Shown here: in pieces, positions 21,783 through 60,475 of the stretch
How positions within the stretch are numbered: the stretch's first letter is position 1
How the letters are laid out: each line of letters begins with the position of its first letter
From: Minisyncoccota bacterium
GTDB lineage: Bacteria > Patescibacteriota > Minisyncoccia > Phycocordibacterales > UBA5272
DNA length: 64,000 nt
Assembly (NCBI GenBank): GCA_043781255.1
Contig: JAYWBQ010000028.1
Coordinates: forward strand, 16,702-80,701
Reading direction: 5' to 3'
Notes under the pieces: model-generated
The model's input: the letters and a program-made list of their open reading frames with translations, nothing else
The model's database searches: none
What the model was told of the DNA's origin: nothing
Translations under genes and position numbers: made by a program

Positions 21783-22268
21783 TTATAAAGGTCTATTGTG
21801 GTCAATTTTTTCATCAACGACTTCTATCTCATCTTGCATTTCGTCAATGTTTTCTTGAATATCCTCTACATCTTCTGCAATATCTTCCATATCCTCTTGA
21901 ATTTCCTCCACGTCGTGTGAGATCTCTTCCACGTCTTCTGCTATACCTTCCACATCTTCTTGCATCTCCTCAACATTTTCTTGAATATCCCCTACATCTT
22001 CCGCGATTTCATCAATTTCTTTTTCAACGCTTGCAAGAGCTCGTCCTTGGTAATTCACACTTATCTGAATGAATATTGAAAGATAAATAGCCTCGAGAGA
22101 CACAATCGTCGTAAGAACAAGAAGTACTCGTTCAAAATTAACGCCAAGCAAGATAATCACAAATGCTCCTGCAAAAAGGAGTGTATGGATGACAACTGAA
22201 CTGATTGACCCAATACCACGAGTTACCGAAAGTGCAAGAGCTTCAGCCTTATTTAAAGGGGTTTTCAT
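21783..22268 (-). CDS. DUF1003-like membrane protein with a C-terminal acidic heptad-repeat tail
   Basis: N-terminal GSISSVVIHTLLFAGAFVIILLGVNFERVLL...SLEAIYLSIFIQISVNYQ matches the DUF1003 pattern. The C-terminus has nine 7-residue repeats (IAEDVED/IQENVEE/MQEDVEG...). Confidence 0.55.
   Translation of the reverse strand: MKTPLNKAEALALSVTRGIGSISSVVIHTLLFAGAFVIILLGVNFERVLLVLTTIVSLEAIYLSIFIQISVNYQGRALASVEKEIDEIAEDVGDIQENVEEMQEDVEGIAEDVEEISHDVEEIQEDMEDIAEDVEDIQENIDEMQDEIEVVDEKIDHNRPL
21825..22015. repeat. Tandem 21-bp repeats (about 9 copies) encoding the acidic heptad repeats
   Basis: Periodic gatatcttc/gacgtcttc/catatcctc... units visible in the plus-strand sequence. Confidence 0.6.
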
Positions 22269-23459: not shown

Positions 23460-23470
23460 CGAAGTTGGTT

Positions 23471-23507
23471 TTATTTACGAATAATACCCCGTGGCATTAG
23501 CCCAAGG
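23471..23507 (+). repeat. Hairpin-repeat family, degenerate type-A copy
   Basis: TTATTTACGAATAA palindrome + TACCCCGTGGCATTAGCCCAAGG. Confidence 0.4.
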
Positions 23508-23612
23508 ATGTTCATTGAAATAAAAAGACCCCCAGAATACGTAGCCGTTCAAGGATTAATCCCAGTACCACTTAATGTATATCCTTCACATGCTTAGAGC
23601 AAGGACAATTAG

Positions 23613-37414: not shown

Positions 37415-38720
37415 CACTCATAGTATGCTACCTACTCGCTCTTTTATTTCTATATTTCTAGTTAGCTCACTTTTACTCTTCTGTTCACCTTCTTTTCTGA
37501 CTCATACAGTCGCTCAAACAGCAGAGCAGTTAAAAGGTAATCTTGATACCCTGTCATTACAAATTAAAGCACTTGATGATGAAATTAAAGCGTTCAACTC
37601 AAAAATTAGCAAAACCCAAGGAGAGGCAAAAACCTTAAAAGAAGCTCTTACTAAACTAGAACTTCGACGCACAGGACTTTCAAAAGATATTTCCTATACA
37701 AAACTTCGGATTAATCAGGCTGAGCAAAATATTAGTTTTACGCAAGGAAAAATTAAAAATACAGAATCAACGCTTGATAAAACTAAAAGTGAGCTTGGAC
37801 TCTCTTTGCGGTTACTTGTCCATAATGAACAGTCTCTCCCATATTTTGTAAGTGCTCTTGCAAAGGGTGCTCACATCTCTGATGCGCTTGACATCACAAA
37901 ACGTGGAGAGGAGTTTACCACTGCTGTTAATCAAAAAACCCGTGCACTTGTTGATACTAAAACAACACTCTCAATTCAAAAAGCTTCATACGAACAACAC
38001 AAAAATGTTCTTCTCACACTTAATCAAACATTAACTGACCAAAAGATTCTAGTTGATCAAACATCAAAGGATAAGAGTTCTCTTCTTTCTGAAACAAAAG
38101 ATAAAGAGTCGACATATCAAAAGCTACTTGCTGAGAGGAAAAAAAAGAAAGGTGAGTTGGAAGTGGAAATGCTTGATGTTGAAGCAAAACTCCAAACAAT
38201 CGTGGACTCAAGTAAAATTCCTAAATATGGAAAGGGGATTCTTCAATATCCACTTGATAATGTTATCATCACTCAGTACTTTGGTAACACACCATTTTCA
38301 AGTAAAAACCCTCAAGTCTATAATGGTTCTGGGCATAATGGGGTCGATTTTGGTACAAAGATAGGTACGCCAATTTTATCTGCGGCAGCTGGCAGAGTGC
38401 TCGGTACCGGAGATACTGATGCATCATGTAATGGTGTGTCTTATGGTAAATGGGTTCTCATTAGACACGGCAATGGACTCACATCGCTCTATGCACATCT
38501 TTCTGTTATCCAAGCAAAAGTCGGAGATGTCGTTACCTCACGACAAAAAATTGGGCTCTCAGGAAATACCGGGTATAGTACTGGTCCACACTTACACTTT
38601 ACCGTGTATGCTTCTGATGCAGTTCAAATAACAAAGTATGTTAGTAAAGTATGTGGGACAAATATGACTATGCCAATTGCTCCACGTGCAGGGTATCTCA
38701 ATCCACTATCTTATTTGTAA
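37389..38720 (+). CDS. M23-family peptidoglycan endopeptidase with an N-terminal coiled coil (EnvC-like)
   Basis: Signal or TM segment, then a long coiled coil. C-terminal GHNGVDFGTKIGTPILSAAAGRV...GPHLHF carries the M23 HxxxD and HxH motifs. Confidence 0.8.
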   Translation: MFVAPLIHNTHSMLPTRSFISIFLVSSLLLFCSPSFLTHTVAQTAEQLKGNLDTLSLQIKALDDEIKAFNSKISKTQGEAKTLKEALTKLELRRTGLSKDISYTKLRINQAEQNISFTQGKIKNTESTLDKTKSELGLSLRLLVHNEQSLPYFVSALAKGAHISDALDITKRGEEFTTAVNQKTRALVDTKTTLSIQKASYEQHKNVLLTLNQTLTDQKILVDQTSKDKSSLLSETKDKESTYQKLLAERKKKKGELEVEMLDVEAKLQTIVDSSKIPKYGKGILQYPLDNVIITQYFGNTPFSSKNPQVYNGSGHNGVDFGTKIGTPILSAAAGRVLGTGDTDASCNGVSYGKWVLIRHGNGLTSLYAHLSVIQAKVGDVVTSRQKIGLSGNTGYSTGPHLHFTVYASDAVQITKYVSKVCGTNMTMPIAPRAGYLNPLSYL

Positions 38721-38753
38721 TCTTTCTTATTACTACATATACTGTTTACATAT

Positions 38754-38861
38754 ATGCTTACCTTCACTATCCCCGCACTCATACTCCTAATGATCTTGGC
38801 GTTTCTTGTCGGAGCTCTCATTGGTGGGGTTATTATTTATAGAAAGTCTACGGGAAAATAA
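38754..38861 (+). CDS. Small single-TM peptide (35 aa), copy 1 of a tandem pair; not in the ORF track
   Basis: MLTFTIPALILLMILAFLVGALIGGVIIYRKSTGK. Hydrophobic core with a basic C-terminus. The first 11 codons match copy 2 with mostly synonymous differences. Confidence 0.45.
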   Translation: MLTFTIPALILLMILAFLVGALIGGVIIYRKSTGK

Positions 38862-38873
38862 TTCATCTAAATT

Positions 38874-38975
38874 ATGCTAACATTCACTATTCCAGCCTTT
38901 ATTCTCTTGTTATTTATGTGTGCTTTAGTTGGTGCAACATTTGGAATTTGGGTTGTTCTTATAAAGTGGAGGTAG
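38874..38975 (+). CDS. Small single-TM peptide (33 aa), copy 2 of the tandem pair; not in the ORF track
   Basis: MLTFTIPAFILLLFMCALVGATFGIWVVLIKWR. It starts 13 nt after the stop of copy 1. Confidence 0.45.
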   Translation: MLTFTIPAFILLLFMCALVGATFGIWVVLIKWR

Positions 38976-39079
38976 ATAATTTTTGGTAAAGGTGAAAGGG
39001 TGAGGGGAGAAGTCCCCTATTTAAACTAGGGTTAGTTTTTAAATGTTAATTTAAGAGTTACGAGGGTTAGTATTTCTTT

Positions 39080-39116
39080 TTATTCGCGAATAATACCCTG
39101 TGGCGTCAGCCCAGGG
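39080..39116 (+). repeat. Hairpin-repeat family, type-A copy
   Basis: TTATTCGCGAATAA perfect palindrome + TACC + CCCTG-TGGCGTCAGCC-CAGGG hairpin. Confidence 0.6.
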
Positions 39117-39334
39117 ATGTAGCGAGTTCTGCATCCAGTTCTCCTTCGTTATGATACGATACAGGTATGTCTGCAAAACAGAATTACAAAAGGGGTAATC
39201 ACTGTGTATACCTGTGCGATTATCACATAGTGCTTCCGACCAAATTCAGACACTCATGTATCACAGAAGACCTGTGGTCGTACTTGTATGGGAAACTTCT
39301 GGAGATTACAAAACATTATCCGAATTCGTGAATA

Positions 39335-39362
39335 CTACCTCCATAGCGTCAGTCCAAGGTAG
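39335..39362 (+). repeat. Hairpin-repeat family, degenerate copy
   Basis: CTACCT-CCATAGCGTCAGTCCA-AGGTAG. The loop is related to TGGCGTCAGCC and the outer stem is compensated. Confidence 0.4.
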
Positions 39363-40057
39363 TTCATTGGTCAGTATGGTAAATACGGTACATTGTGGAA
39401 CAAGTTTGCTGTAAAGTTACTATTATTATAAAAATTTAAAAATGCAAAGGTTTTTAAAGTCTTGTAATGGCTAAAATAGCTTACCAGATAACTACGGTGA
39501 AGATGTGGGTTATTTAGGATACTTATGTCGTAAAAGATATATTGTGCGACATTAACTTATAATAACAAAAGCCCCCTCAACCTTATATATACAAAGGATT
39601 TTTCCCTTTGTCTTTTACTATTGATTATTACTAAATTTTTTAACAGCACTTACTGCCCTATCCATCCGTAGGTAACCATCAAGTCATCCTATTTCCTTTG
39701 TTACTATTTAAAAGCAAGTTAAGTCTTGGTTAATGTCATACATAGAAATATACTCTTACCAGATTAAGTCATTTTTACTGTAGTTCGATCTTAGATAGAC
39801 TACTGCTCGCACATAGCATGTCTCGCTTACTCTTTATAGATCTAAGTAAACACTGGATAACTATAAATCCCAAGTTACGATAGGCTCTAAGGTTAATTTT
39901 AGAGGATACTACCTACATCACTAGAATTATATATAAGACTACGATTACTTGGAATATATACCAAATCAGTAAAAAGTCTCTGATGTTACTGTAAAGATTA
40001 ACCATTAGTAAGATAAATTATTCCTACTATTTTTTATTCAATTGTTTTTATCTTTTT

Positions 40058-40093
40058 TAGTCCACACAAATCCTCCGTGGCGTCAGCCCGGAG
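40058..40093 (+). repeat. Hairpin-repeat family, type-B copy
   Basis: TAGTCCACACAAATC + CTCCG-TGGCGTCAGCC-CGGAG. Confidence 0.6.
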
Positions 40094-40235
40094 TTCTTTA
40101 GTTTATAATTATTATTTTATTATTTCTGTGGCTAAGACTACTTTTTCCTTGCTATTTTTTTTGAAAAAATATTTTAAGCTATAGTGAATGCTTTATATGT
40201 CTGCGTTTCCTCACCTTCCATTATAAAAGTAAAAT

Positions 40236-40263
40236 GGGTATGTATCCTTACAATACATACCCA
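40236..40263 (-). terminator. Hairpin terminator downstream of proS
   Basis: GGGTATGTAT-n8-ATACATACCC inverted repeat, followed on the minus strand by a T-rich run. Confidence 0.5.
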
Positions 40264-40331
40264 TTTAAACTATTAGATATAGCAAAATGTTTAGATAGAT
40301 AACTATAGAAAAGTGATACTGTCTTCTATGG

Positions 40332-41585
40332 CTAGCAAGCTTTTGTAAACATGTGAATGCACTGATCTACGGAAACAACATCAGAAGTTGTTCCTGTACG
40401 TTCCTTCACTTCAACTCCTCCTAAGGTGAGAGACTTGTCACTCACAACAACCCGCATAGGAATACCAATGAGATCACTATCAGCAAACTTTTCCCCTGCC
40501 TGTAACTCACGATCATCAAAGAGTACTTCTACATGGTTGTCAGTTAGTTGCTTGTATAAATACTCTGCTTGCTTGTAAGCTTCTCCATTTTTATCTTTTC
40601 CAAGCACGATAAGATGTATTGAGTATGGTGCAATAGATGCTGGCCATACGAGACCATTTTCATCAGATAATGTTTCAGCAATTACTCCCATAATACGACT
40701 GACCCCAATGCCATAACATCCCATAACGCCCCGCTTCCCTTCACCTTCCTTATCAATAAAAGAAAAATCAAAAGCTTCTTGGTAACGAGTGCCTAAGTCA
40801 AAGACATTCCCAACCTCGGAGGCCTTTCCTAATTTAAGTGGACCAGATCCATCTGGAGACTCATCTCCTTCTTCTAATTCTGTGATTTCTTTGTTGATGC
40901 AATAATTAGATTTTTCTGAATACAAAATATCATCTTCACCAGCATTGGTAAGCACCATGAATTCATATGATATTTTTTTTGAAAAACTGCCACCACTTGC
41001 CTCCGTTACTTTTGTCACAAGTCCAATCTCAGAATAAATCTCAAGGTACTTCTTCTTTGCTTGCTCATAAAATGTATCAAATGCATCTTGGTTTTCATGA
41101 ATTGTATACATGTCTTTCATAAGAAATTCTCGACCACGCATAATGCCTGCTTTTGCTCGAAGTTCATCTCTAAATTTCCAGTGAATTTGATATCCAATGA
41201 ATGGAAGATTTTTATATGATCGGATATATTCTTTAATAATTGGCGTCACAACCTCTTCTTCACTTTGTCCGATTGCATATTCTCGTTCAGTCCTGCTTTG
41301 AATTTTGAAGAGAACTTCAACAGAATCCCATGCACCAGTTGTTTTCCATAGTTCTGCCGGATGAAGCATCGACATAGTCATTTCTTGAGCGCCAAGCTCA
41401 TTCATTTTAAGCCTAACTATATCCTCAATTTTTCTAAGCACACGAAGACCTAGTGGAAGAAATGTGTAGGACCCCGCCATTGTTTTATGAACAAAACCAG
41501 CACGAATAAGTAGCTGTGCATTTTTACTTGTTTCATCTGCAGGTAGATCTTTAGTCGTCTTCGTAAATAATTGTGATTGTCGCAT
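40332..41585 (-). CDS. proS: Prolyl-tRNA synthetase (bacterial-like N-terminus, no INS editing domain)
   Basis: MRQSQLFTKTTKDLPADETSKNAQLLIRAGF matches the ProRS N-terminal consensus. Class II motifs present. 417 aa is too short to hold an INS domain. Confidence 0.85.
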   Translation of the reverse strand: MRQSQLFTKTTKDLPADETSKNAQLLIRAGFVHKTMAGSYTFLPLGLRVLRKIEDIVRLKMNELGAQEMTMSMLHPAELWKTTGAWDSVEVLFKIQSRTEREYAIGQSEEEVVTPIIKEYIRSYKNLPFIGYQIHWKFRDELRAKAGIMRGREFLMKDMYTIHENQDAFDTFYEQAKKKYLEIYSEIGLVTKVTEASGGSFSKKISYEFMVLTNAGEDDILYSEKSNYCINKEITELEEGDESPDGSGPLKLGKASEVGNVFDLGTRYQEAFDFSFIDKEGEGKRGVMGCYGIGVSRIMGVIAETLSDENGLVWPASIAPYSIHLIVLGKDKNGEAYKQAEYLYKQLTDNHVEVLFDDRELQAGEKFADSDLIGIPMRVVVSDKSLTLGGVEVKERTGTTSDVVSVDQCIHMFTKAC

Positions 41586-41600
41586 ATTCGTAAAATTATT

Positions 41601-42731
41601 TTAAACTCTAATGTCATTAATGGTTACAATGATAAGAAGTAACATAAGGCTTACAAAACCAATAACATTAACCCAAGAATAATATCCATAAGGTATCTTT
41701 TTTCGAGTCACGGTTTCGATAATCACCACTACCATTCTTCCACCGTCAAGTGCCGGGAGTGGAAGAATATTAAATATTGCAAGGTTAATAGAAAGAACAG
41801 CAACAAGCGTAAGGACTGCGCTGATTCCGTATTCACTAGTTTCCCCTACTATTCTCGCGATTCCAACTGGACCAGAAAGTGAAGAGAGAACATTATTACC
41901 TTTAAATATAGAACTAACAACACTGCTGAGGCCATCAATTGTTAACCTGGTAATGGTAAGAGTTTTGCCATATCCAAGACTAATAGCTTCTGCAAATGTT
42001 GTTTTTATTGTGCCAACTTGTTCAATAGAGATACCAAGAGCTTTTTTATCAGGTACGATGCCATAGACTGCGGCTACTGTTGTTGATTTTTCTTGCCCAT
42101 CGGGGGATCTATACGAAATTATAAAAGGAGTATTTTGGTGAGCTCCAATAAAAGCAATAAGTGACGTAGCTGTTGTAAGTTGTGCTTTTTGATTCGCACT
42201 TGTGAGAGCGAGAATTGTAGAACCAGGTACAACTCCCGCCTTATACGCTGGACTTTCTTTTGAAACTTCTGCAACAATAAGTGAACTCTCCTTGATACGA
42301 GATCCATATATTTCATCGTTCGCACTCACAGTAACTGTGCCATACGAAATACCGATAAAAATAAAAAGTGCCAAAAGCATATTCATAGTAACTCCAGCAA
42401 TGAGTACAAGCAGCTGCGTCCACCATGGACGATTACCAAAGGCACGAGGATGATGCTTTGCTCCGCCTTTCTCTTTGTCTTCGTCACTGCCATTTTCACC
42501 CCAAATTGAAACATATCCACCAAGAGGAAGTGCATTAATGGCATATGTCGTCTCACCATATTTTTTGGCAAATACTCGTGGAGGGAAGCCGAAAGCAAAT
42601 TCATCGACTCGCATCCCAGTTAGCTTGGCAACAATAAAGTGTCCGAATTCGTGAACGATAACGAGCACTAATAAAATAATAATAAACAGTGCTAAGGCAG
42701 ATATAGACATAATGACCTTAGTGTACCACAT
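41601..42731 (-). CDS. rseP: RIP metalloprotease RseP (M50 site-2 protease)
   Basis: HEFGHFIVAK (HExxH) in TM1. PDZ-like central region. C-terminal LDGG motif. Confidence 0.85.
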   Translation of the reverse strand: MWYTKVIMSISALALFIIILLVLVIVHEFGHFIVAKLTGMRVDEFAFGFPPRVFAKKYGETTYAINALPLGGYVSIWGENGSDEDKEKGGAKHHPRAFGNRPWWTQLLVLIAGVTMNMLLALFIFIGISYGTVTVSANDEIYGSRIKESSLIVAEVSKESPAYKAGVVPGSTILALTSANQKAQLTTATSLIAFIGAHQNTPFIISYRSPDGQEKSTTVAAVYGIVPDKKALGISIEQVGTIKTTFAEAISLGYGKTLTITRLTIDGLSSVVSSIFKGNNVLSSLSGPVGIARIVGETSEYGISAVLTLVAVLSINLAIFNILPLPALDGGRMVVVIIETVTRKKIPYGYYSWVNVIGFVSLMLLLIIVTINDIRV

Positions 42732-42823
42732 AGAACAGACTGAAGCAGGTACACTCTAGACTTTAGCTTTTTAATTCAAATGTATACAAAAAATGGTATC
42801 TTTGGAAATCAGTTTTTGTACTT

Positions 42824-42860
42824 TAGTCCACACAAATCCTCCGTGGCGTTAGTCCGGGAG
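42824..42860 (+). repeat. Hairpin-repeat family, type-B copy
   Basis: TAGTCCACACAAATC + CTCCG-TGGCGTTAGTC-CGGGAG. Confidence 0.55.
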
Positions 42861-42942
42861 ATGGAGTGAGTTCATGTTTTGTAATCAAAACATGTTGAAT
42901 GGCGAAGCTCTTCAACTAAAGCAATCCAAAGGATTGCGATCT

Positions 42943-42965
42943 AATCCTCTGTGGCGTCAGTCTAG
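42943..42965 (+). repeat. Hairpin-repeat family, degenerate type-B copy
   Basis: AATCCTCTG-TGGCGTCAGTC-TAG. Confidence 0.4.
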
Positions 42966-43008
42966 TATTCTTTAGTTATGGGCTACAGGCTAATTGCTAC
43001 AGTCTGTA

Positions 43009-43563
43009 TTATTCCCCCATTACTTCCTTTTCTTTTTTATTAAAAAGTTCTTCAAGTTCTTGGTTTGCATTGTCAACTATTTTTTGCATTTCGTCACGAT
43101 ATCTTTTTTGATCATCTTCGCCGTATGCTCCATCTTTTGCTTCAGTGTCGATTACTTTGTTTGTTTCTTCTCGCAGTGCACGTATGCGTACTCGTGCGTC
43201 TTCTAGACGATCTTTAAGAAGCTTTACAAGCTTTTGACGAGTCTCTGTTGTGAGACTTGGGAAGTGTACACGGAGTCCTTCACCATCAGAAGAAACAGAG
43301 AGCCCAAGGTCTGCGTCATTGATCGCCTTTTCCATTTGACTAATAATAGACTTATCCCACGGAGAAACACGAATGGTTCTTGGGTCTTCGATGGTAATAC
43401 CTGCGGCATGAGCGAGAGCTGTACGAGTTCCATACATATCGATGTGTACAAGATCAAGTACTTGTGGAGTTGCACGTCCGGTCTGAATAGATCGGTACTC
43501 AGCTTTTAACCATTCTGTAATGGTATTTTTTTGTGCTGTAACTTGTGAAAAATCGTATGCCAT
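43009..43563 (-). CDS. frr: Ribosome recycling factor
   Basis: 184 aa with the RRF consensus throughout (RVHFPSLTTETRQKLVKLLKDRLEDARVRIR...). Confidence 0.9.
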   Translation of the reverse strand: MAYDFSQVTAQKNTITEWLKAEYRSIQTGRATPQVLDLVHIDMYGTRTALAHAAGITIEDPRTIRVSPWDKSIISQMEKAINDADLGLSVSSDGEGLRVHFPSLTTETRQKLVKLLKDRLEDARVRIRALREETNKVIDTEAKDGAYGEDDQKRYRDEMQKIVDNANQELEELFNKKEKEVMGE

Positions 43564-43596
43564 ATAAAAGTAATTAAGTGTATGTAGTGTAGCTCA

Positions 43597-44391
43597 CTAT
43601 TTCATTTGTGGCAATAAGAGCGAAAGATACTCTAGGAGAGCTTTACCTGAAGCGGATGGGTCAGATGCAAAAGAAGCTATAGCTATCGTTTCAGTAATGT
43701 GATTATTTTGAAGAGAATCACCCCTTCTTTTTTTTTGTGAAAGAAGTTCAGCGAGATTAAGAATAAATTGTCGAACGGCTTCTCTGTCTTTACGATCCTC
43801 TTCATCTTTTTTTTCAAGAAGTTTTACTATGTAGGGTAATTTTATTCTCATTGTAGGATTCGTACTTAAAAATAATTCTGCATCTTTGTGTATATTTAAA
43901 TTTTCTTTTTCTTCATGTAGTAGGACTCTAGAAATAACTGTGTCAATCAAGTGAGATTTGTTACTTGTAATAAGAATAAAGCGAGTATTACTTGGAGGCT
44001 CTTCTAGAATTTTAAGTAAAGCATTTTGTGCAGGGATACCTGCTGTATGAAAAGAAATGATCCCGACCCTCTCATCATTGTAAGAAGTTTTTGCCCAAGA
44101 GATTATCTCACGCGCTGTCTCTATGTTTAATACTGTTTGGTTGAAGTATCTGTGTATAGGAGAAAGTCCTTTGAGTTCATTCCAAAGATCAGTACTTACT
44201 ACTATTCGATCATTTGTTGTTACAAGGATCGCATGATGTGTTGGGAGAGAAGAAAGTAGCATAGTTTTGTATTCCAAGTATAACATTTTGACAATATTGT
44301 GGAGGAGATGACAGATATTAAAGAAAAACTTTCTGAGACTAGAAAGAAAAAAATACCAGAGTCGCTTGCGACTCTGGTATTTGCCCACCAC
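43597..44391 (-). CDS. holB: DNA polymerase III delta-prime subunit-like clamp-loader protein
   Basis: NALLKILEEPP motif and SRV box (TVISRVL). Likely start at the internal Met (MLYLEYK...). Confidence 0.6.
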   Translation of the reverse strand: MVGKYQSRKRLWYFFLSSLRKFFFNICHLLHNIVKMLYLEYKTMLLSSLPTHHAILVTTNDRIVVSTDLWNELKGLSPIHRYFNQTVLNIETAREIISWAKTSYNDERVGIISFHTAGIPAQNALLKILEEPPSNTRFILITSNKSHLIDTVISRVLLHEEKENLNIHKDAELFLSTNPTMRIKLPYIVKLLEKKDEEDRKDREAVRQFILNLAELLSQKKRRGDSLQNNHITETIAIASFASDPSASGKALLEYLSLLLPQMK

Positions 44392-44397
44392 ACCTGC

Positions 44398-44970
44398 TCA
44401 CTTAAGGGGTAGTCTATCTGGCATTCCAGATCTTTTACAAACCTCTTGTAAAAACATTCTGCCATCTCTGGTCACGAAAAAACAAAGCGTTTCTTCAACG
44501 GCACGGTTATCAGCGAGGGTTGCATACGGTGCGTTTTTGTAAACGGGGTTACCATTTGTCATTAACAAGTGCTGAAGGCGATTTACTGTTAGTAATCCAA
44601 GCTGATTTTCTATAGCCCAAGAAGCAATAGCGCTGTCTCTTTCGCTTGAATAGTCATTCCAACCGTGCGATTTTTCTTTTGCTTTTCTCAAGGCGCTCTC
44701 AAGAAAAGATAATCCAACAGGCATCATTGACCACACAGCAAATGTTGCCGCAACTTTGGCAGTTCGAATCGTTAAACCTTGGGGTATAGAAGTTAAGAGT
44801 GCAATGAGTCGTGTTGTCCAACCACACGCGTACTCATTTTCATACCCCATGTATTCTTTCCAAAACGTAACCACTGCCAGCTCAAGAGGTCGGTCAAAAC
44901 GTGCATCAAAGTGTGGTAAAAACCAGTCGTCGGTAATTTTAACTTTAGTAGCATCCATAAGTATCTCCAA
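44398..44970 (-). CDS. Hypothetical protein
   Basis: 190-aa ORF between holB and mreB. No motif recognised. GC is somewhat higher than in flanking genes. Confidence 0.5.
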   Translation of the reverse strand: MEILMDATKVKITDDWFLPHFDARFDRPLELAVVTFWKEYMGYENEYACGWTTRLIALLTSIPQGLTIRTAKVAATFAVWSMMPVGLSFLESALRKAKEKSHGWNDYSSERDSAIASWAIENQLGLLTVNRLQHLLMTNGNPVYKNAPYATLADNRAVEETLCFFVTRDGRMFLQEVCKRSGMPDRLPLK

Positions 44971-45034
44971 AATAAAGAGCCCAGTTACTCTGAAAAAACT
45001 CTAACACTAATAGTTGTCTACTGCAAACCTATCT

Positions 45035-46048
45035 TTATTTCTTGGCGAAAATACTTCTCTTGTACGTATCTAAGTGTTCAAGTGCAATACCTGTACCTTT
45101 AGCCACACAATAGAAAGCATCAGGTGCCAGCACAGCTTTTACTCCCGTGCGACGTTCTACAAGGTCTGGGAAATGTCGAAGCATGGAAGATCCTCCGCTC
45201 ATGATGATGCCGTTGTCGATGATATCTGACGCGAGTTCTGGTGGAGTTTCTTGGAGCACATCTCGAATTGCTTTTATCATAAGTTTAAGTTCTTTATCAA
45301 TTGCTTTTACAATTTCATTCGTTCGTATCTCAACGGTACGTGGAAGCCCTGCAATAAAGTCCCGTCCTTTTACTTTAAGAACAAGTTCGTCTTCAATTGG
45401 AAGAGCGGACCCAATTTTTATTTTAATGTCTTCTGCAGTCTGGTCTCCGATAGCGAGATTGTAAGTTTTCTTTACATAATCAATGATGGCTTGATCAATT
45501 TTATTTCCTGCGCACTTCACTGAAGTACTACAAACAATACCACCAAGCGAAATAACGGCGACATCTGTTGTCCCTCCTCCAATATCCACAATCATTCTTC
45601 CTTGTGCTTCGTGAATTGGAATACCAGCTCCAATTGCAGCCAAAATCGGCTCCTTTACCACGTACGCATTCCGGGCCCCCGCTTTAAGGGCTGCTTCTAT
45701 TACTGCACGGCGTTCCGTCGAAGTCACTCCTGCAGGGACCGAGACCATCACATCAGGTTTGAAAAGATTAAACCCGCCAAGTGCCTTATGGATGTAATAT
45801 CGGAGCATCGCTTCTGTAACTCTGTAATCAGCAATAACTCCATCACGCATAGGGCGGTAGGCAGTGATTGAGTCAGGAGTTTTACCAATCATATCTTTAG
45901 CCTCACTCCCAACTGCTAGAATCTTTGTACCAGTCTCAGAAATAGCAACAACAGAGGGCTCAACGAGCACAACTCCTTTTCCAGGAACATAGACAAGTGT
46001 GTTTGCTGTGCCTAAGTCAATACCTAATTTCTTAAAAAAGAATCCCAT
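45035..46048 (-). CDS. mreB: Rod shape-determining protein MreB
   Basis: Actin-fold motifs (GIDLGTANTLVYV; DIGGGTTDVAVIS). Confidence 0.9.
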   Translation of the reverse strand: MGFFFKKLGIDLGTANTLVYVPGKGVVLVEPSVVAISETGTKILAVGSEAKDMIGKTPDSITAYRPMRDGVIADYRVTEAMLRYYIHKALGGFNLFKPDVMVSVPAGVTSTERRAVIEAALKAGARNAYVVKEPILAAIGAGIPIHEAQGRMIVDIGGGTTDVAVISLGGIVCSTSVKCAGNKIDQAIIDYVKKTYNLAIGDQTAEDIKIKIGSALPIEDELVLKVKGRDFIAGLPRTVEIRTNEIVKAIDKELKLMIKAIRDVLQETPPELASDIIDNGIIMSGGSSMLRHFPDLVERRTGVKAVLAPDAFYCVAKGTGIALEHLDTYKRSIFAKK

Positions 46049-46087
46049 AATTTTCTTAAGTATATCATATTTTTATGTTGTCGCAGA

Positions 46088-48022
46088 ATGCTTATTTACC
46101 TTATTTTAAAAGGATTTTTAGGGTATTTTATGTACTTTCTGATATACTTTATGGTAACCATGTATCTCCTTACTGTATCCCCTTTGGTTAATGGAATCCC
46201 ATATGAGGAGTTAACTTACTTTTCTAAAATTGAAACAGCCCCGGGAGACTTAGTGGAAATAACTATTCGCAAACGAATCTGTCGGGCACTCGTCTTATCT
46301 GTTGTTAATGCCGAAGAAGAAAAACAATCACTCAAGAATGCATCATTTGTTACAAAGAAAATTTCTAAAGTTTTGATTAAAGGTTTTCTTCATCCACGTC
46401 TTTGGTCGGCACTTGCTTTTGCATCGTCATGTGTTCTTCGTAATGTCGGGACACTTATCTATGATTTACTTTCTGAAAAAAGTTTTGATGATCTTACATT
46501 ACTTACTGTGTCCGAAGAAGCGAAAGGATTTGAAGTTTTACTTCTTGAGCAAAATTATTCAAATCGAATGCTAAGGTTTAAAACAACAATACGAGAAATG
46601 TTTTCAAAGAAGAAATCTCTTGTTATTTTTTTTCCGACAATTACTGATCTTGAACATGCAAAAGATATTTTAGCAAAAGGAATTGAGGATTATGTCATTA
46701 CCTTCCATGGAAGCTTAACTGATAAACAGTATGCACAATCAGAGTACACATTAAAGGTAAGTAATCACCCACTTGTAATTCTTACCACACCATCACTTCT
46801 ACCGTGGGTGCGGACTGACCTTGGGTTAGTTGTTATTGAGCGTGAACATAGTCACTATTACTACACGTATGGTGAACAAGGGTATGATATGCGTTTTGTT
46901 ATTGAGCTTTTAGCAAAAGCATCTGCAATCCCCTGCTTGTTAGGATCTCATATGCTCTCGCTCCGTGCTCATATGAAGTATCTAACAAAAGACGCAACAG
47001 AAATTATCCCCCTCTTGTTTAGAAATGATGCAAATGTAACTATTATACCAATGATAGAAGACAATAGGACAAGTAGTCCATATCTTTCACGACAGGCACT
47101 TGAAATTCTTCATCAATGTAAAGTACAAAAACATGGACACTATTTTTTGTATGCACATCGTAAGGGTATGTATCCTACTACTGTATGTTCTGACTGTGGT
47201 GAATTATTTACATGTACTAGGTGCAACCGTCCATATGTGCTTCATAAAATTGCAGGTAAGCGAACCTATGTCTGCCACGGATGTGAATCAATTATTCAAA
47301 TTGATGAAGAGACCTCACTGTCATGCCGGCATTGTGGTGGATGGAGAATGGCAACACTTGGCATTGCAACTGGTGGTATTGAGGAAGTATTGTCTCGTCT
47401 CGGACTCCCTATTTTTGTTATCGATGGAGAACGAACACCCACAAAAGCTAAAGTTAAAAAAGTGTGCAAAGAGTGGCAAGATTCACCGTATGGAATACTT
47501 ATTGGAACTGAAATGGCTCACAACATAGTAAATAGCTGTGATGGAATAATTATTCTCTCACTTGATTCACTTTTTTCTTTACCAGAATATAGAACAGATG
47601 AAAAGATACTTTCGCTTGTAACTGAAATGGCAGAAAAGTTATCTCGTGGTATTCAAACTGATGCGCCACTTATTCTTCAAACGAGATTAAAAAATAGCCC
47701 CGTCATTAAGCATTTAACCTCTTCCTCATTCAGAGAGGTATACCAGATACTTTTGAAAGAACGAGAAGCATTTTTACTGCCACCATACTATACAGTTATT
47801 AGAGCGTCATATGACAACTTATCAGATGATCTTAGAAAAAGATTTGAGCACGAACTTGAACCATATACAGTTATATGGTTTGAACAAGGTCGTGGGGTGA
47901 CACTTCTTTTTGTGCATATTAAAGAGTCAGAGTGGATGAACAACAGTGACGTACGAGAAAAAGTGAAGCGAGTGGTGTATGATGCACACCCTGTAGTTAA
48001 TCCTCTTCACTTCTTCATCTAA
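46088..48022 (+). CDS. PriA-like primosomal protein with degenerate helicase motifs
   Basis: Central Cys4 zinc-binding insert (CSDCGELFTCTRCNRP...CHGCES...CRHCGG) and PriA-like domain order. The expected Walker A (GxGKT) is absent and DEEH is replaced by EREH. Confidence 0.55.
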   Translation: MLIYLILKGFLGYFMYFLIYFMVTMYLLTVSPLVNGIPYEELTYFSKIETAPGDLVEITIRKRICRALVLSVVNAEEEKQSLKNASFVTKKISKVLIKGFLHPRLWSALAFASSCVLRNVGTLIYDLLSEKSFDDLTLLTVSEEAKGFEVLLLEQNYSNRMLRFKTTIREMFSKKKSLVIFFPTITDLEHAKDILAKGIEDYVITFHGSLTDKQYAQSEYTLKVSNHPLVILTTPSLLPWVRTDLGLVVIEREHSHYYYTYGEQGYDMRFVIELLAKASAIPCLLGSHMLSLRAHMKYLTKDATEIIPLLFRNDANVTIIPMIEDNRTSSPYLSRQALEILHQCKVQKHGHYFLYAHRKGMYPTTVCSDCGELFTCTRCNRPYVLHKIAGKRTYVCHGCESIIQIDEETSLSCRHCGGWRMATLGIATGGIEEVLSRLGLPIFVIDGERTPTKAKVKKVCKEWQDSPYGILIGTEMAHNIVNSCDGIIILSLDSLFSLPEYRTDEKILSLVTEMAEKLSRGIQTDAPLILQTRLKNSPVIKHLTSSSFREVYQILLKEREAFLLPPYYTVIRASYDNLSDDLRKRFEHELEPYTVIWFEQGRGVTLLFVHIKESEWMNNSDVREKVKRVVYDAHPVVNPLHFFI

Positions 48023-48135
48023 GGTAACATAGACCTCTCTGGTTTTATTTTGGTCCCAGACTTGAACTTTAGTTCAACCAGGAAAACAAACACAGGCTCT
48101 GTCAAGAGCTCTGTTTTTATGGTAGTATTATTTTT

Positions 48136-48681
48136 ATGAAAGTGAAAGATACTATCATTCAAATTAATGATGATGAACATAGTCCACTTCGTGCACATGC
48201 GCGATCTATTACGAAAGACGAGTTTAGCTCTGTCTATCTTCGGGACGTCATCTCTTCTATGAAGCAAGCGCTTGCTTCTGAGAGTGATGGTGTTGCAATA
48301 GCGGCTCCGCAGATAGCGATCCCACTTCGTTTATTTGTGGTTGCCCTATCATCATATGAAGAGAGCGTTAAACATAAGCCCCTTGTTTTTATTAACCCAA
48401 AGATAGTCAAAAAATCTAAGAAGACAGTTATTATGCAAGAGGGATGCCTTTCCGTGAGGTGGATTTATGGTAAGACAAAACGTTCAATTGCATGTACAAT
48501 TGAAGCGTATGACGAGGATGGAAAGAAATTTAGTTATGGTGGTCAAGGATTGTTAGCTCACATTTTTCAGCACGAAACAGATCATTTAAATGGAGTATTG
48601 TTTGTTGACCACGGATTTGATTTTGAGGAGTATACAGAGGAGGAAATTAGAAAAGCTGAAAAAGAAATGGAGAAAAAATAA
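48136..48681 (+). CDS. def: Peptide deformylase
   Basis: EGCLSV and HETDHLNG (HExxH) motifs. Confidence 0.85.
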   Translation: MKVKDTIIQINDDEHSPLRAHARSITKDEFSSVYLRDVISSMKQALASESDGVAIAAPQIAIPLRLFVVALSSYEESVKHKPLVFINPKIVKKSKKTVIMQEGCLSVRWIYGKTKRSIACTIEAYDEDGKKFSYGGQGLLAHIFQHETDHLNGVLFVDHGFDFEEYTEEEIRKAEKEMEKK

Positions 48682-48706
48682 GTTTTAATTTGATATACTT
48701 TAAAGT

Positions 48707-49582
48707 ATGAACAAAAATATACCGTATATATTTTTTGGTACCGGCGTACTCGCGGAGAGTGTCCTTGCATCACTCTATCGTGCTGGCTATGTGCCAGAAA
48801 TTGTTGTGACAAAACCTGATAGTAGACAAGGTCGTCATATGGAACTCACATCACCTACTATTAAAATTTGGGCAGAGATGAAAGGAATAAAAGTTCTCCA
48901 ACCCGAGAAATTAGACTTTGAATTAAGCGACAGTCTACAGCCTACTAGCTACAATCTATTTATTGTTGCTTCCTATGGTAAGATGATTCCAGAAGCTATT
49001 CTTAATCTGCCGGTTCACGGAGTTCTTAATGTGCATCCCTCTCTCCTTCCTCTCTACCGTGGAGCATCCCCTATCGAATCAGTACTCCTTGATGGTCACA
49101 TGACAACTGGTGTAAGTATCATGAAGTTAGATAAAAATATGGATCATGGACCAATTCTCGCACAATCAGCTTTTATGATTAACCCCGAATCAAATGCAGG
49201 TACTCTTGAAGTAGAGTGCGGACAATTAGGTGGCGAACTCCTCACACAAGTAATTCCTCACTACCTCGAGGGCACTCTTATCCCAAAAGAACAGGACCAC
49301 ACTAAAGCTACAATTTGTAAGAAGATTACAAAAGACCTTGGACTTATTCACTTACATGATGACATTGATATTGTACGAAGAAAGTTCCGTGCCTTCACTC
49401 CGTGGCCTTCACTTTATTTTTTTATTGAACACGCTGGACGTGATATTCGAGTAAAAATAAATCAAGTTGATTGTATTTCGGAAAAAGAATCACGCTTAGC
49501 AGAAGATTATATTATGAGTGTGACTCCTGAAGGGAAAAAACAGATGGACTGGGAAAGTTTTAAACGTGGTTATTTAAGTTAA
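48707..49582 (+). CDS. fmt: Methionyl-tRNA formyltransferase
   Basis: NVHPSLLPLYRGASPI formyltransferase motif. def-fmt gene order. Confidence 0.85.
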   Translation: MNKNIPYIFFGTGVLAESVLASLYRAGYVPEIVVTKPDSRQGRHMELTSPTIKIWAEMKGIKVLQPEKLDFELSDSLQPTSYNLFIVASYGKMIPEAILNLPVHGVLNVHPSLLPLYRGASPIESVLLDGHMTTGVSIMKLDKNMDHGPILAQSAFMINPESNAGTLEVECGQLGGELLTQVIPHYLEGTLIPKEQDHTKATICKKITKDLGLIHLHDDIDIVRRKFRAFTPWPSLYFFIEHAGRDIRVKINQVDCISEKESRLAEDYIMSVTPEGKKQMDWESFKRGYLS

Positions 49583-49618
49583 GTGTTTGGCTACTGGCTA
49601 AAGTCTACGGTCTGCCAG

Positions 49619-52840: not shown

Positions 52841-52858
52841 GCTCCGTGGGTAGGGATC
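52841..52858. repeat. Copy 1 of the tRNA-Asn 3'-end sequence (GCTCCGTGGGTAGGGATC)
   Basis: 18/18 identity to the tRNA-Asn 3' end at 53906-53923. Confidence 0.6.
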
Positions 52859-53140
52859 TTTCCCGAGAGTATTCGGGACTGTGGATTCCTGCAGATTGAG
52901 TACAATCTAAGAAATCTCGTAGCCTTCGGTTCGATCTCGGTACAAACGGCTGTTAAAAGTAAAAATCCCACACAAAGTGGAACTTTTACTTTTAATGCTC
53001 GCTTGGCAATCTGACTTCTGAACTTTTAATTGGTCCAAAGCTGTCGGTGATCCAGAGATAACAGCCAGAGAAGTTAACTACTTGTTATCACTTTGTTTAA
53101 TTAGTTTTAGAAAATAATCGTTAGTATCGTAAGTAGTATA

Positions 53141-53180
53141 AAAATGAAAACCACCGAAGCGCACGGTGGCTTTCGGTGGG
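53141..53180 (-). terminator. Rho-independent terminator of the GC-rich orphan gene
   Basis: Minus-strand RNA CCACCG-UGCGCUU-CGGUGG followed by UUUUCAUUUUU, immediately 3' of the stop at 53198. Confidence 0.6.
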
Positions 53181-53197
53181 GCTGTGAAGTGGTTCGT

Positions 53198-53581
53198 CTA
53201 CGCGTCAGCATAGCGCTTGAAGAACTCTGCACGTGTCGTGACAGGCTTCACGACTTCAGCAGATTCCAGACTGAACAGGAAAAGAGCAAAGTCATGATTC
53301 GGGAAGCCGAGCTCGTTCCAGTAGGTGGCGGCTTCCGGTGACTTTTCACGAAGTGCTTCGATCGCCATGGTCTGAAGCACGATGTAGCCGGGATAGTCCG
53401 GAACGTCGAACCCAGAAATGACATCACGCATCCCATCACCTTTTTGAGGAGTGCCGTCGTGCGAAAAGAGACAAGGAACTTCGACCTCAATCCACTGCTC
53501 ACGGATTGAGAGTGGTGCACCACCCTTTGGAACAGCGGTGAAGCGAATGACACCGAGATCTTCCAGTTTAATCTGTAACAT
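53198..53581 (-). CDS. Hypothetical protein; high-GC orphan gene inside the tRNA-Asn repeat region
   Basis: 127-aa ORF, noticeably more GC-rich than the rest of the window. It has its own terminator and lies between repeat copies 1 and 2. No motif recognised. Confidence 0.5.
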   Translation of the reverse strand: MLQIKLEDLGVIRFTAVPKGGAPLSIREQWIEVEVPCLFSHDGTPQKGDGMRDVISGFDVPDYPGYIVLQTMAIEALREKSPEAATYWNELGFPNHDFALFLFSLESAEVVKPVTTRAEFFKRYADA

Positions 53582-53708
53582 GAGAACTCCTTGGTTTGGT
53601 TATAGAAACACCTAAATACTACACTTTTGAAAATCATAAAGCAAGAACTAGTTCTGAACCCTAACTAGGTAAATGAAAAATACCTTATCTAAAAGGTATT
53701 TTTTAAAG

Positions 53709-53725
53709 GCTCCGTGGGTAGGGAT
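53709..53725. repeat. Copy 2 of the tRNA-Asn 3'-end sequence
   Basis: GCTCCGTGGGTAGGGAT, 17/17 identity to the tRNA 3' end. Confidence 0.6.
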
Positions 53726-53906
53726 ATCTCCCACAAGTAAACTTTTGCCGTCACAAAAGTTTCTCGCGGGCCACTCCTCGTCGTTTCGCTTGCTAGCGAA
53801 ACATACTCCGGACTTTCGACCCCTAACAAAAGCCAAGCAGTTGGCTTTTTCCCGCGGAGCACTAAAATCAAAGGCCGCCATTTCTGGCGACCTAAGATTT
53901 TATGGG

Positions 53907-60307: not shown

Positions 60308-60332
60308 TCTACGAGCTGAGTAAATGAACCTC

Positions 60333-60368
60333 CCCGGGCTGACGCCACGGGGTATTATTCGCGAATAA
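60333..60368 (-). repeat. Hairpin-repeat family, type-A copy in inverse orientation
   Basis: The reverse complement reads TTATTCGCGAATAA + TACC + CCCG-TGGCGTCAGCC-CGGGG. Confidence 0.6.
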
Positions 60369-60475
60369 AAAATAGTTTTTTGTAAGAAATTAGAGACCAG
60401 AACGTCACAATAGATGAGCCTCGTGATATTGCAAGTAATTATACAAATGTTTCTTAATTAATACTCATAAATACT

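What the first reader, a model, noticed from the sequence alone, without database searches (positions are those of the whole stretch)
38980..40235. About 1.25 kb with no credible ORF in an otherwise tightly packed genome
Between the small peptide genes and the proS terminator there is no ORF over 66 aa on either strand. Elsewhere in the window, intergenic gaps are typically under 150 bp.

- **Content.** The stretch contains four or more copies or relics of the TGGCGTCAGCC hairpin family (39080, ~39275, 39335, 40058) and AT-rich tracts.
- **Candidate explanations.**
  - A cluster of ncRNA genes.
  - A decayed mobile-element graveyard.
  - A gene that has been disrupted beyond recognition.
Basis: seen in the sequence. 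Interest (0 to 1): 0.5.

Follow-up and report, generated by a model that had tools for sequence, protein, structure and literature searches.

The report
Conserved recombination site plus transposon debris
The gene-free 1.25 kb is an old, conserved spacer between two converging operons of a Patescibacteria (CPR) bacterium. It holds an invariant 24-bp recombination site, probably the chromosome's dif/Xer site, which filamentous phages use as a landing pad in other genomes, and in this genome it has also collected fragments of a small IS200-type transposon.

Summary
Window 38721-40331 has no ORF of 70 aa or more and is by far the largest gap in the window.

**Recent transposon debris (well supported)**
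- 39083-39368 is an internally deleted IS200/IS605-family element: a left-end hairpin, the first 53 codons of tnpA, and a right-end hairpin.
- 40061-40100 is a solo end.
- The "TGGCGTCAGCC hairpins" are the transposon's subterminal hairpins. Related transposase ORFs in public data read through the same hairpin at both ends.

**An ancestral spacer (new)**
- At least four other species keep the same convergent M23-peptidase / proS arrangement, with a gene-free spacer of 1.0-1.4 kb.
- The spacer's core, GTCGTAAAA-GATATA-TTGTGCGAC (39527-39550), is identical in all of them.
- The same 24-mer occurs in 17 IMG/VR contigs. There it borders inovirus-like prophages in which no integrase was detected.
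- Those prophages are followed by hybrid copies that keep the centre and one arm. This is the signature of site-specific integration at a dif/Xer-type site (IMEX).
- In the window the site is empty.

**Other results**
- No known or structured ncRNA was found, and no destroyed host gene.
- GC skew does not flip at the site, so calling it "dif" remains an inference.

The parts
38996..39040 (+). Terminator-like hairpins closing the left operon (murG-gltX-M23-small peptides)
   Evidence: GGGGAGAAGTCCCC plus a T-rich tail. The scan hit lies at 39015-39031. Equivalent hairpins occur in relatives (alignment).
39076..39127 (+). IS200-family left-end unit: T-rich/TTTTA flank, TTCGCGAATAATA, then a hairpin CCCTG-T-GGC-GTCA-GCC-CAGGG with a bulged T
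   Evidence: Covariance model hit of 60.7 bits. DNA fold -10.1 kcal/mol, z = -2.9. Translated, it reads SRIIPCGVSPGM, which matches the N-terminal read-through of the related transposase ORF P0244.
39167..39331 (+). tnpA pseudogene: the first 53 codons of an IS200/IS605 Y1 transposase, ending before the HUH motif
   Evidence: NCBIfam transpos_IS200 E=1.2e-6, profile positions 1-45 of 126. Pfam Y1_Tnp E=7.8e-4. Eight of nine PDB hits are IS200/IS605 TnpA. 62-72% identity to P0241-P0244. 49% identity to annotated Borreliella tnpA.
39318..39370 (+). Degenerate right-end unit. The tnpA reading frame stops inside it, and it ends in GTTCATTGG like the other A-type units.
   Evidence: Covariance model hit of 46.8 bits. 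Alignments. The hairpin is decayed. Homology to TnpA ends at residue 53, exactly where the unit begins.
39506..39638 (.). Conserved non-coding block 1, present in all five species with this synteny
   Evidence: 76-86% identity to relatives, against 68-79% for M23 and about 50% for the rest of the spacer. Conserved in all reading frames, with stops and frameshifts, so not coding.
39527..39550 (.). Invariant core GTCGTAAAA-GATATA-TTGTGCGAC (9-6-9). In the window it extends to 11-6-11 at 39525-39552. Read as an unoccupied site-specific recombination / phage attachment site, probably dif/Xer-type.
   Evidence: Identical in the window, L122, L125, L128, L130 and L135. Single copy in the window. Exact matches in 17 IMG/VR contigs, where it borders inovirus-like prophages followed by hybrid copies that keep GATATA-TTGTGCGAC.
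39884..39923 (.). Conserved block 2 (TTTTAGAGGATACTACCTAC); function unknown
   Evidence: 84-93% identity to L122, L125 and L128.
40053..40104 (+). Solo B-type transposon end. The 40-bp unit at 40061-40100 lies between two TTTAG.
   Evidence: Covariance model hit of 61.4 bits. Intact hairpin, z = -3.8. Absent from relatives. The sister strain carries a stem-breaking change at 40092.
40232..40266 (-). proS terminator hairpin, usable from both sides
   Evidence: 15-bp stem followed by a T run. Fold z of -3.3 to -4.2.
40267..40290 (.). Conserved block 3 (AACTATTAGATATAGCA) between the terminator and the proS stop codon; function unknown
   Evidence: AACTATTAGAT is invariant in five species.
42827..42975 (+). 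Outside the finding: a complete 149-bp non-autonomous element of the same family, with two B-type hairpin units. It is inserted after TTTAG and ends in TTTAG.
   Evidence: A relative with 91% ProS identity (L119) has the empty site...GTATTTTTAG|CTACGGTCTACAG.
23467..23518 (+). Outside the finding: solo A-type unit with a decayed stem
60321..60372 (-). Outside the finding: solo A-type unit with an intact hairpin
   Evidence: It aligns to the P0244 read-through.

Best explanation
**The spacer.** The stretch is this species' version of an ancestral spacer of about 1-1.4 kb. It is gene-free and AT-rich, and the murG-gltX-M23-small-peptide operon and the proS-rseP-frr operon terminate in it head-on.

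**The functional core (inferred).**
- The core is a 24-bp imperfect inverted repeat, GTCGTAAAA-GATATA-TTGTGCGAC, at 39527-39550.
- I read it as the target of a host tyrosine recombinase, most likely the chromosome dimer-resolution (Xer/dif-type) site.
- In other genomes, filamentous-phage-like elements in which no integrase was detected have integrated there one after another.
- Each integration leaves the full site next to host DNA and a hybrid site (phage arm + same centre + same right arm) behind each element.
- In the window the site is unoccupied.

**The transposon debris (shown).**
- Because the spacer tolerates insertions, this species has also collected debris of an IS200/IS605-family transposon.
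- 39083-39368 is an internally deleted copy: left-end hairpin, 53 codons of tnpA without the catalytic HUH and Tyr residues, and a right-end hairpin.
- 40061-40100 is a solo end.
- These copies cannot move on their own.

**The rest.** The remaining sequence evolves almost freely.

**Shown versus inferred.**
- Shown: the transposon identity; conservation of the spacer and its core; the prophage junction structure elsewhere.
- Inferred: that the recombinase is Xer and that the site is dif.

**What the confidence covers.** The stated confidence is for the composite reading. My component estimates are about 0.9 for the IS200 debris, about 0.75 for a recombination/attachment site of some kind, and about 0.45 for Xer/dif specifically.
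For: **Transposon**
- The tnpA N-terminus is identified.
- P0244 reads through the same hairpin upstream of its tnpA (SRIIPRGVSPRM). P0242 reads through it at its 3' end (FIPCGVSPGF).
- The window holds 7 units. An empty site in L119 defines a complete 149-bp element flanked by TTTAG...TTTAG.
- Short-read contigs of the same species break at the units.
- The units are absent from relatives.

**Spacer and core**
- The same convergent synteny, with gene-free spacers of 1359, 998, 1259 and 1150 bp, occurs in species whose M23 is 84, 81, 79 and 67% identical.
- The core is invariant, and block 1 is more conserved than the flanking genes.
- The core is single copy in the window.
- There are 17 exact matches in IMG/VR.
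- The elements there carry a Zot-like ATPase and a rolling-circle Rep. No integrase was detected among the ORFs scanned.
- In six contigs, a full site and hybrid sites lie 5.1-5.9 kb apart in direct order, arranged as arrays.
- Contigs of two species end exactly at the core, and L135 continues differently after it.
- dif architecture and IMEX arrays are described in PMC9226527 and PMC3025954.

**Weak constraint elsewhere**
- Between strains there are 12 differences in 1245 bp of spacer, against 33 in 9253 bp of flank (odds ratio 2.7, P=0.008). None falls in 39087-39654.
Against: - GC skew does not change sign at the site. A regression over 59 ORFs gives a strand-independent +0.033±0.013 on both sides and a side effect of -0.008±0.014. 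dif sites normally sit near the skew shift.
- The palindrome test of Kono et al. (positions 7-12 against 17-22) gives only 3 of 6 pairs. Here it is the outer arm positions that are palindromic (with the sequence).
- No xer gene lies in the window, and the rest of the genome could not be searched.
- The hosts of the prophage contigs are unidentified. Their MurG is only 24% identical to the window's, so identity of all 24 bases across that distance is more than known dif sites usually show. Spread by the mobile elements themselves is an alternative explanation.
- About 70 nt to the right of the core are also conserved in four species, and a bare recombination site does not explain that.
Confidence: 0.6

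Rival explanations
1. The conserved core is an attachment site, but not dif. In this reading block 1 is (or overlaps) a small host gene or regulatory element, for instance a short RNA. Phages target the end of it, as they target tRNA genes, and some other recombinase carries out the reaction.
For: - About 70 nt to the right of the core are conserved in four species. This stretch includes TATAAT, a C-rich stretch (GCCCCC) and a weak hairpin with a T-rich tail.
- GC skew does not flip at the site.
- The Kono palindrome criterion is not met.
Against: - No integrase was detected in the integrated elements, which is what points to a host recombinase.
- No Rfam match, no covariation and no excess folding energy.
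- The promoter scan does not call a promoter there.
- L130 and L135 diverge directly after the core.
Confidence: 0.2
2. The core is an operator (inverted repeat GTCGTA-N12-TGCGAC) for a widespread DNA-binding regulator that controls a promoter immediately downstream. Its presence next to phage genes would then reflect regulation rather than recombination.
For: - In the viral contigs the 24-mer lies directly upstream of good promoters, such as TTGACA-17-TAAAAT, and of the first phage gene.
- In the window a TATAAT follows 7 nt after it.
Against: - An operator does not explain the hybrid copies, which keep only the centre and one arm and lie exactly one element length (5.1-5.9 kb) downstream in direct order.
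- It does not explain why assemblies break at the core.
- In the window no gene lies downstream, because the flanking operons converge.
Confidence: 0.08
3. The whole stretch is functionless junk: a mobile-element graveyard or a host gene destroyed beyond recognition.
For: - An IS200 relic and a solo end are present.
- A sister lineage has an IS256-family transposase in the same spacer.
- The spacer outside the conserved blocks is about 50% identical between species, and it varies 2.7 times more between strains than the flanks do.
Against: - Spacer length and position are kept in five species.
- 24-26 bases are invariant while the flanking genes are 60-79% identical.
- The IS units are absent from relatives, so they cannot be the reason the spacer exists.
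- No relic of any host gene was found in six frames.
Confidence: 0.05

Closest known systems
IS200/IS605-family insertion sequences and their non-autonomous derivatives (PATEs)
   Same: - An N-terminal Y1 transposase sequence.
- Subterminal hairpins with an extrahelical T, in direct orientation at both ends.
- No terminal inverted repeats.
- Insertion after a short motif (TTTAG or TTTTA) that is echoed at the element's own right end.
- Short gene-less derivatives scattered in intergenic DNA. PATE-like elements are described in PMC10055086.
   Different: - No intact copy is seen in the window.
- The copy in the finding lacks the HUH motif and the catalytic Tyr.
- Many units are single 40-50-nt hairpins, shorter than typical PATEs.
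- Whether TTTAG is a target/end motif pair or a 5-bp duplication cannot be decided from one empty site.
REP sequences with RAYT transposases
   Same: Short GC-rich hairpins of about 20-50 nt are dispersed in intergenic regions, often just after genes, and are associated with a Y1 transposase relative.
   Different: - The units flanking the tnpA relic are in direct, not inverted, orientation.
- The protein fragment matches the IS200 equivalog model.
- The copy number seen is low (7 in 64 kb).
dif sites and IMEX (integrative mobile elements exploiting Xer, e.g. CTXphi, TLCphi, VGJphi of Vibrio cholerae)
   Same: - Two partially inverted arms lie around a 6-bp centre.
- The site is single copy in a spacer between converging operons.
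- The site stays intact after integration.
- Filamentous phages in which no integrase was detected are integrated in tandem arrays, each bounded by a hybrid site with one degenerate arm (PMC9226527, PMC3025954).
   Different: - The sequence resembles canonical dif only loosely (about 6 of 11 positions per arm against E. coli dif; my own comparison).
- Palindromy is in the outer rather than the inner arm positions.
- There is no GC-skew shift at the site within the window.
- Xer proteins were neither identified nor tested.

Membership tests
IS200/IS605 insertion sequence | Encodes a Y1 (HUH) transposase TnpA of about 130-155 aa with the HUH motif and a catalytic tyrosine | tested here: not met
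   Only residues 1-53 are present. These correspond to NCBIfam profile positions 1-45 of 126. tblastn with full-length relatives finds nothing beyond residue 53. The copy is therefore a relic of a family member, not a functional member.
IS200/IS605 insertion sequence | Subterminal imperfect hairpins at both ends, in the same orientation, with no terminal inverted repeats | tested here: met
   Hairpin units lie at 39076-39127 and 39318-39370, both on the + strand. Related ORFs P0244 and P0242 read through the same hairpin 5' and 3' of tnpA.
IS200/IS605 insertion sequence | Inserts 3' of a short specific sequence without target duplication, and the right end carries a related motif | tested here: inconclusive
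   One comparison of an empty site (L119) with a filled site shows a 149-bp insert after TTTAG that ends in TTTAG. This fits a target/end motif pair but equally fits a 5-bp duplication.
REP/RAYT system | A single RAYT gene flanked by REPs in inverted orientation, with many REP copies genome-wide | tested here: not met
   The flanking units are in direct orientation. The best protein model is transpos_IS200. Genome-wide copy number is unknown.
dif / Xer chromosome dimer resolution site | About 28 bp: two 11-bp partially inverted arms around a 6-bp central region | tested here: met
   ATGTCGTAAAA-GATATA-TTGTGCGACAT has 9 of 11 arm positions inverted-identical in the window. The invariant part across species is 9-6-9.
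dif / Xer chromosome dimer resolution site | Palindromy of positions 7-12 against 17-22 (at least 4 of 6 pairs; criterion of Kono et al. 2011) | tested here: not met
   3 of 6 pairs are formed, whereas positions 1-6 against 23-28 give 6 of 6. The criterion comes from PMC3025954 and was applied by hand.
dif / Xer chromosome dimer resolution site | One copy per chromosome | tested here: inconclusive
   Single copy in the 64-kb window, even allowing 3 mismatches. The whole genome is not available.
dif / Xer chromosome dimer resolution site | Located at or near the GC-skew shift point (the terminus) | tested here: not met
   Skew has the same sign on both sides of the site. Gene orientation bias does flip, from 69% on the + strand to the left to 62% on the - strand to the right (hand count).
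dif / Xer chromosome dimer resolution site | Exploited by integrase-less mobile elements (IMEX), leaving the full site plus hybrid sites with a degenerate arm | tested here: met
   Six IMG/VR contigs show this arrangement. The elements have a Zot-like ATPase and a rolling-circle Rep, and no integrase was detected among the ORFs scanned.
dif / Xer chromosome dimer resolution site | Cognate XerC/XerD (or a single Xer) recombinase in the genome, with binding and cleavage of the site | not testable with these tools
   No tyrosine recombinase was found among the window ORFs scanned. The rest of the genome is not held.
Known structured ncRNA (Rfam 15) | Match to a covariance model, or conserved structure with covariation | tested here: not met
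   Nothing relevant at E up to 10 in the window, or at E up to 1 in four relatives. RNAalifold finds only invariant or doubtful pairs.

The most novel reading that the evidence does not exclude
The 24-bp core would be the dif site of a large part of the Patescibacteria (CPR), conserved base-for-base across lineages whose housekeeping proteins are only about 25% identical. It would be the integration site for arrays of integrase-less inoviruses. That would be the first definition of the dimer-resolution site, and of Xer-exploiting phages, in this superphylum. The site would also lie away from any GC-skew shift.
Probability: 0.35. Interest if true: 0.6.

Novelty: new member of a known kind. Interest (0 to 1): 0.5.

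Why it matters
- CPR/Patescibacteria genomes are tiny and densely packed, and their chromosome maintenance and mobile elements are poorly known.
- A conserved, easily searchable 24-mer would give a marker for the recombination/terminus region of these genomes. It would also give a direct way to link uncultured filamentous phages to their CPR hosts.
- The IS200-type hairpin units explain why short-read assemblies of this species fragment at these places.
- None of this changes known mechanisms. It extends them to an uncharacterised lineage.

Tried and rejected
- **Known RNAs:** Rfam gathering and E-value scans found nothing in the region. tRNA/tmRNA search found none in the region.
- **RNA structure:** sliding-window fold z-scores were significant only at the hairpin units and the proS terminator. 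RNAalifold on block 1 on both strands found no covariation.
- **Origin or terminus by composition:** there is no skew flip.
- **Hidden or decayed genes:** Pfam and NCBIfam on all 46 stop-free segments found only the tnpA fragment. An all-against-all peptide comparison of five species' spacers found only the two small peptides, plus frame-independent hits in block 1.
- **Similar DNA elsewhere:** distant DNA searches against plasmids and phages gave no match.
- **Word-indexed homologue search with the 54-aa fragment:** no candidates. Exact look-up of the fragment: not on record.
- **Literature:** searches for the hairpin string returned only unrelated primers. No paper in the library combines dif, XerD and CPR.
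- **Metagenome scan for the hairpin:**
  - It mainly found a REP-like family in an unrelated organism of 60% GC.
  - That family shares the hairpin and an upstream TCGTGAAT.
  - No Y1 transposase appeared among the 25 Pfam families listed for its contigs.
  - Left as a side observation.
- **Viral scan for the hairpin:** one chance match in a coding region.
- **Weak model hit in the frr-rseP spacer of L002:** 20.9 bits, E=0.79, opposite orientation. Judged not significant.
- **Closest GTDB relatives by ProS (L002, L120):** these have different synteny (proS followed by mreB), so they were uninformative for the spacer.
- **Alternative genetic code in the prophage hosts:** not indicated.

Full report
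**1. The observation**

The window has 37.6% G+C and comes from a Patescibacteria (CPR) bacterium. Relatives of its ProS are all MAGs of that group.

- Between the M23 peptidase gene (37425..38720, +) and proS (40332..41585, -) there is no ORF of 70 aa or more. Two small peptide genes follow M23 (38754..38861 and 38874..38975).
- This 1611-bp gap is the largest in the window. The next largest are 658 and 629 bp, and the median gap is 82 bp.
A covariance model built from the copies finds exactly seven units of about 50 nt in the window.
  - Three lie in the finding: 39076-39127, 39318-39370 and 40053-40104.
  - Two more lie in the frr-rseP spacer.
- The supposed copy near 39275 is not one.

**2. 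The hairpin units are the ends of an IS200/IS605-family transposon**

*The protein fragment.*
- ORF 39167..39331 (54 aa) matches the N-terminus of IS200/IS605 TnpA.
  - NCBIfam transpos_IS200 gives E=1.2e-6 over profile positions 1-45 of 126.
  - Pfam Y1_Tnp gives E=7.8e-4.
  - Eight of the nine best PDB matches are IS200/IS605 transposases.
  - It is 49% identical to annotated Borreliella tnpA.
- An exhaustive HMMER search found relatives with 62-72% identity.

*The link between hairpin and transposase.*
- P0244 has an N-terminal extension, ...SRIIPRGVSPRM.... This is the translation of the hairpin unit (window: SRIIPCGVSPGM at 39084-39119), at the same distance upstream of tnpA.
- P0242, which still has the HVH motif, ends in ...FIPCGVSPGF, the same hairpin read through at the 3' end.
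- So in independent contigs the hairpin sits on both sides of tnpA, as the left and right ends of this IS family do.

*The hairpin itself.*
- It is a 5-bp stem, a bulged T, GGC/GCC and a GTCA loop.
- It is intact in three window copies and decayed in four.

*State of the copy in the finding.*
- Homology to TnpA stops at residue 53, before the HUH motif, exactly where unit 39318-39370 begins. The stop codon lies inside that unit.
- No further tnpA remains are detectable.
- The simplest reading is an internally deleted element at 39083-39368: left end, 53 codons, right end.

*A clean insertion elsewhere in the window.*
- A relative with 91% ProS identity (L119) has an empty site in the frr-rseP spacer.
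- The window there carries a 149-bp insert (42827-42975) with two hairpin units. It is inserted after TTTAG and ends in TTTAG.
- By the same logic, 40061-40100 is a 40-bp solo unit between two TTTAG.
- Gene-less derivatives of this IS family (PATEs) are known (PMC10055086).

*Evidence that the family is recent in this species.*
- It is multicopy. Short-read contigs from several samples end in the units.
- It is absent from the syntenic regions of all relatives examined.

**3. The spacer itself is ancestral**

- Species whose M23 peptidase is 84, 81, 79 and 67% identical keep the same arrangement: murG-gltX-M23(-small peptides) converging on proS-rseP-frr.
- No genes are called in their spacers of 1359, 998, 1259 and 1150 bp.
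- Most of the spacer is unalignable, at about 50% identity. Block 1 (window 39506-39638) is 76-86% identical, more than the M23 gene (68-79%) or proS.
- The 26 bases GTCGTAAAAGATATATTGTGCGACAT are identical in the window and three of the four relatives (L122, L128, L130). L125 differs only at the last base, so 25 bases are invariant across all five species.
- Two shorter conserved blocks lie at 39884-39923 and 40267-40290.
- Block 1 is conserved in every reading frame, contains stops, and is frameshifted in one species. It is therefore not coding.
- Rfam finds nothing in the window or in the relatives. RNAalifold finds no covariation. Folding energy is unremarkable between 39400 and 39980.
- A sister strain (L118, 99.6% identical, colinear from 39087 to 49584 without indels) has 12 differences in the 1245 bp of spacer, against 33 in 9253 bp of flank (odds ratio 2.7, P=0.008). 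None of them falls between 39087 and 39654.

**4. What the core is**

*Architecture.* The invariant bases read as two 9-bp arms that are inverted copies of each other at 7 of 9 positions, around a 6-bp centre: GTCGTAAAA-GATATA-TTGTGCGAC. In the window this extends to 11-6-11, with 9 of 11 arm positions matching. This is the layout of a tyrosine-recombinase core site such as dif (PMC9226527).

*Structural variation at the site.*
- Short-read contigs of two of the related species end exactly at the right edge of the core (L133, L134, L136, L137, L129).
- One assembly (L135) continues with unrelated sequence after it.

*The same 24-mer in viral contigs.*
- It occurs exactly in 17 IMG/VR contigs. 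A chance match to 24 specified bases is very unlikely.
- In those contigs it lies between host genes (murG plus an ftsQ-like gene) and an element of about 5.1-5.9 kb.
- The element encodes a Zot-like assembly ATPase and a rolling-circle replication protein. No integrase was detected among the ORFs scanned. It is therefore inovirus-like.
- In all six contigs long enough to show it, the element is followed, in direct orientation, by a hybrid site. The hybrid keeps GATATA-TTGTGCGAC but has a different left arm, such as TTCCTACTT or CACAAAAAA. After it comes the beginning of another such element.

*Interpretation.* A full site next to the host, with hybrid sites between successive prophages, is the pattern produced by repeated integration into a site that is regenerated each time. 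This is what has been described for the Xer-exploiting phages (IMEX) of Vibrio cholerae, whose attP sites have a degenerate XerD arm (PMC9226527, PMC3025954).

*State in the window.* No hybrid copy exists even with 3 mismatches, so the site is empty.

**5. Why "dif" is still an inference**

- GC skew has the same sign on both sides of the site. A regression over 59 ORFs gives a strand-independent +0.033±0.013 and a side effect of -0.008±0.014.
- Gene orientation bias does reverse at the spacer, but that is weaker evidence.
- The palindromy test of Kono et al. is not met at the inner arm positions (3 of 6 pairs).
- No xer gene lies in the window.
- The prophage hosts are very distant from the window organism: MurG is 24% identical. 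Perfect identity of the site across that distance is striking and might partly reflect the mobile elements.
- About 70 nt to the right of the core are also conserved in four species and remain unexplained. They contain TATAAT, a C-rich run and a weak hairpin. A short transcript is possible but unsupported.

My probabilities are:

| Reading of the core | Probability |
|---|---|
| A site-specific recombination / attachment site of some kind | about 0.75 |
| Specifically the Xer/dif site | about 0.45 |

**6. Overall reading**

- The ORF-free stretch is neither a gene wreck nor a cluster of RNA genes.
- It is a conserved terminator-to-terminator spacer that carries a recombination site, and it tolerates insertions:
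  - IS200 debris in this species.
  - An IS256-family transposase in a sister lineage, L124.
  - Inovirus arrays in more distant genomes.
- The transposon part is ordinary.
- The conserved site is a new member of a known kind and would be useful for CPR genomics if confirmed.

Noticed in passing
window 2975-6054: ORF 2975-4171 is a rolling-circle replication protein of filamentous-phage type (Pfam Phage_CRI 1.3e-10; PHROG 702 2.8e-19). It is followed by a 556-aa large serine recombinase (XisF-like, 1.1e-15) that abuts tRNA-Leu at 5972-6054. This looks like an element integrated at the tRNA and is separate from the 24-mer site.
   Followed up: partly
window 52841-53979: tRNA-Asn (53903-53979, -) has two partial copies of its 3' half, at 53709-53739 and 52841-52871. 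A higher-GC ORF (53248-53637) lies between them. The pattern resembles nested att repeats left by integrations.
   Followed up: no
window 38754-38975: Two tandem paralogous hydrophobic peptides (35 and 33 aa, MLTFTIPA...) follow the M23 peptidase. Four of the five species have both; L130 has one copy. They resemble single-helix membrane peptides and their function is unknown.
   Followed up: partly
L118 1815-2001 (insertion relative to window 49585): A sister strain with 99.6% identity carries an extra 187-bp hairpin-rich segment between fmt and the PPIase gene. It may be another miniature mobile element.
   Followed up: no
L124 7765-8506: A strain of the L122 species has an IS256-family (Zn-binding variant) transposase gene inserted in the same spacer, about 110 bp to the left of where the core should be (NCBIfam 1.5e-42).
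   Followed up: partly
L086-L109 (JGI sample Ga0247727): An unrelated organism of about 60% GC has a REP-like repeat family with the identical hairpin CTCCGTGGCGTCAGCCCGGAG and an upstream TCGTGAAT. The repeats often form tandem arrays with a 64-66-bp period. This suggests the same hairpin-recognising transposase lineage is widespread.
   Followed up: partly
window 21800-22027: Eight or more tandem copies of a 21-bp unit lie inside ORF 21783..22268 (-), which would give a 7-residue repeat protein (family D1).
   Followed up: no
L149, L151, L152, L154-L156 (IMG/VR): Inovirus-like prophages sit in tandem arrays at the 24-mer, downstream of a murG / ftsQ-like gene pair in unidentified low-GC hosts that appear to use the standard genetic code.
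   Followed up: partly
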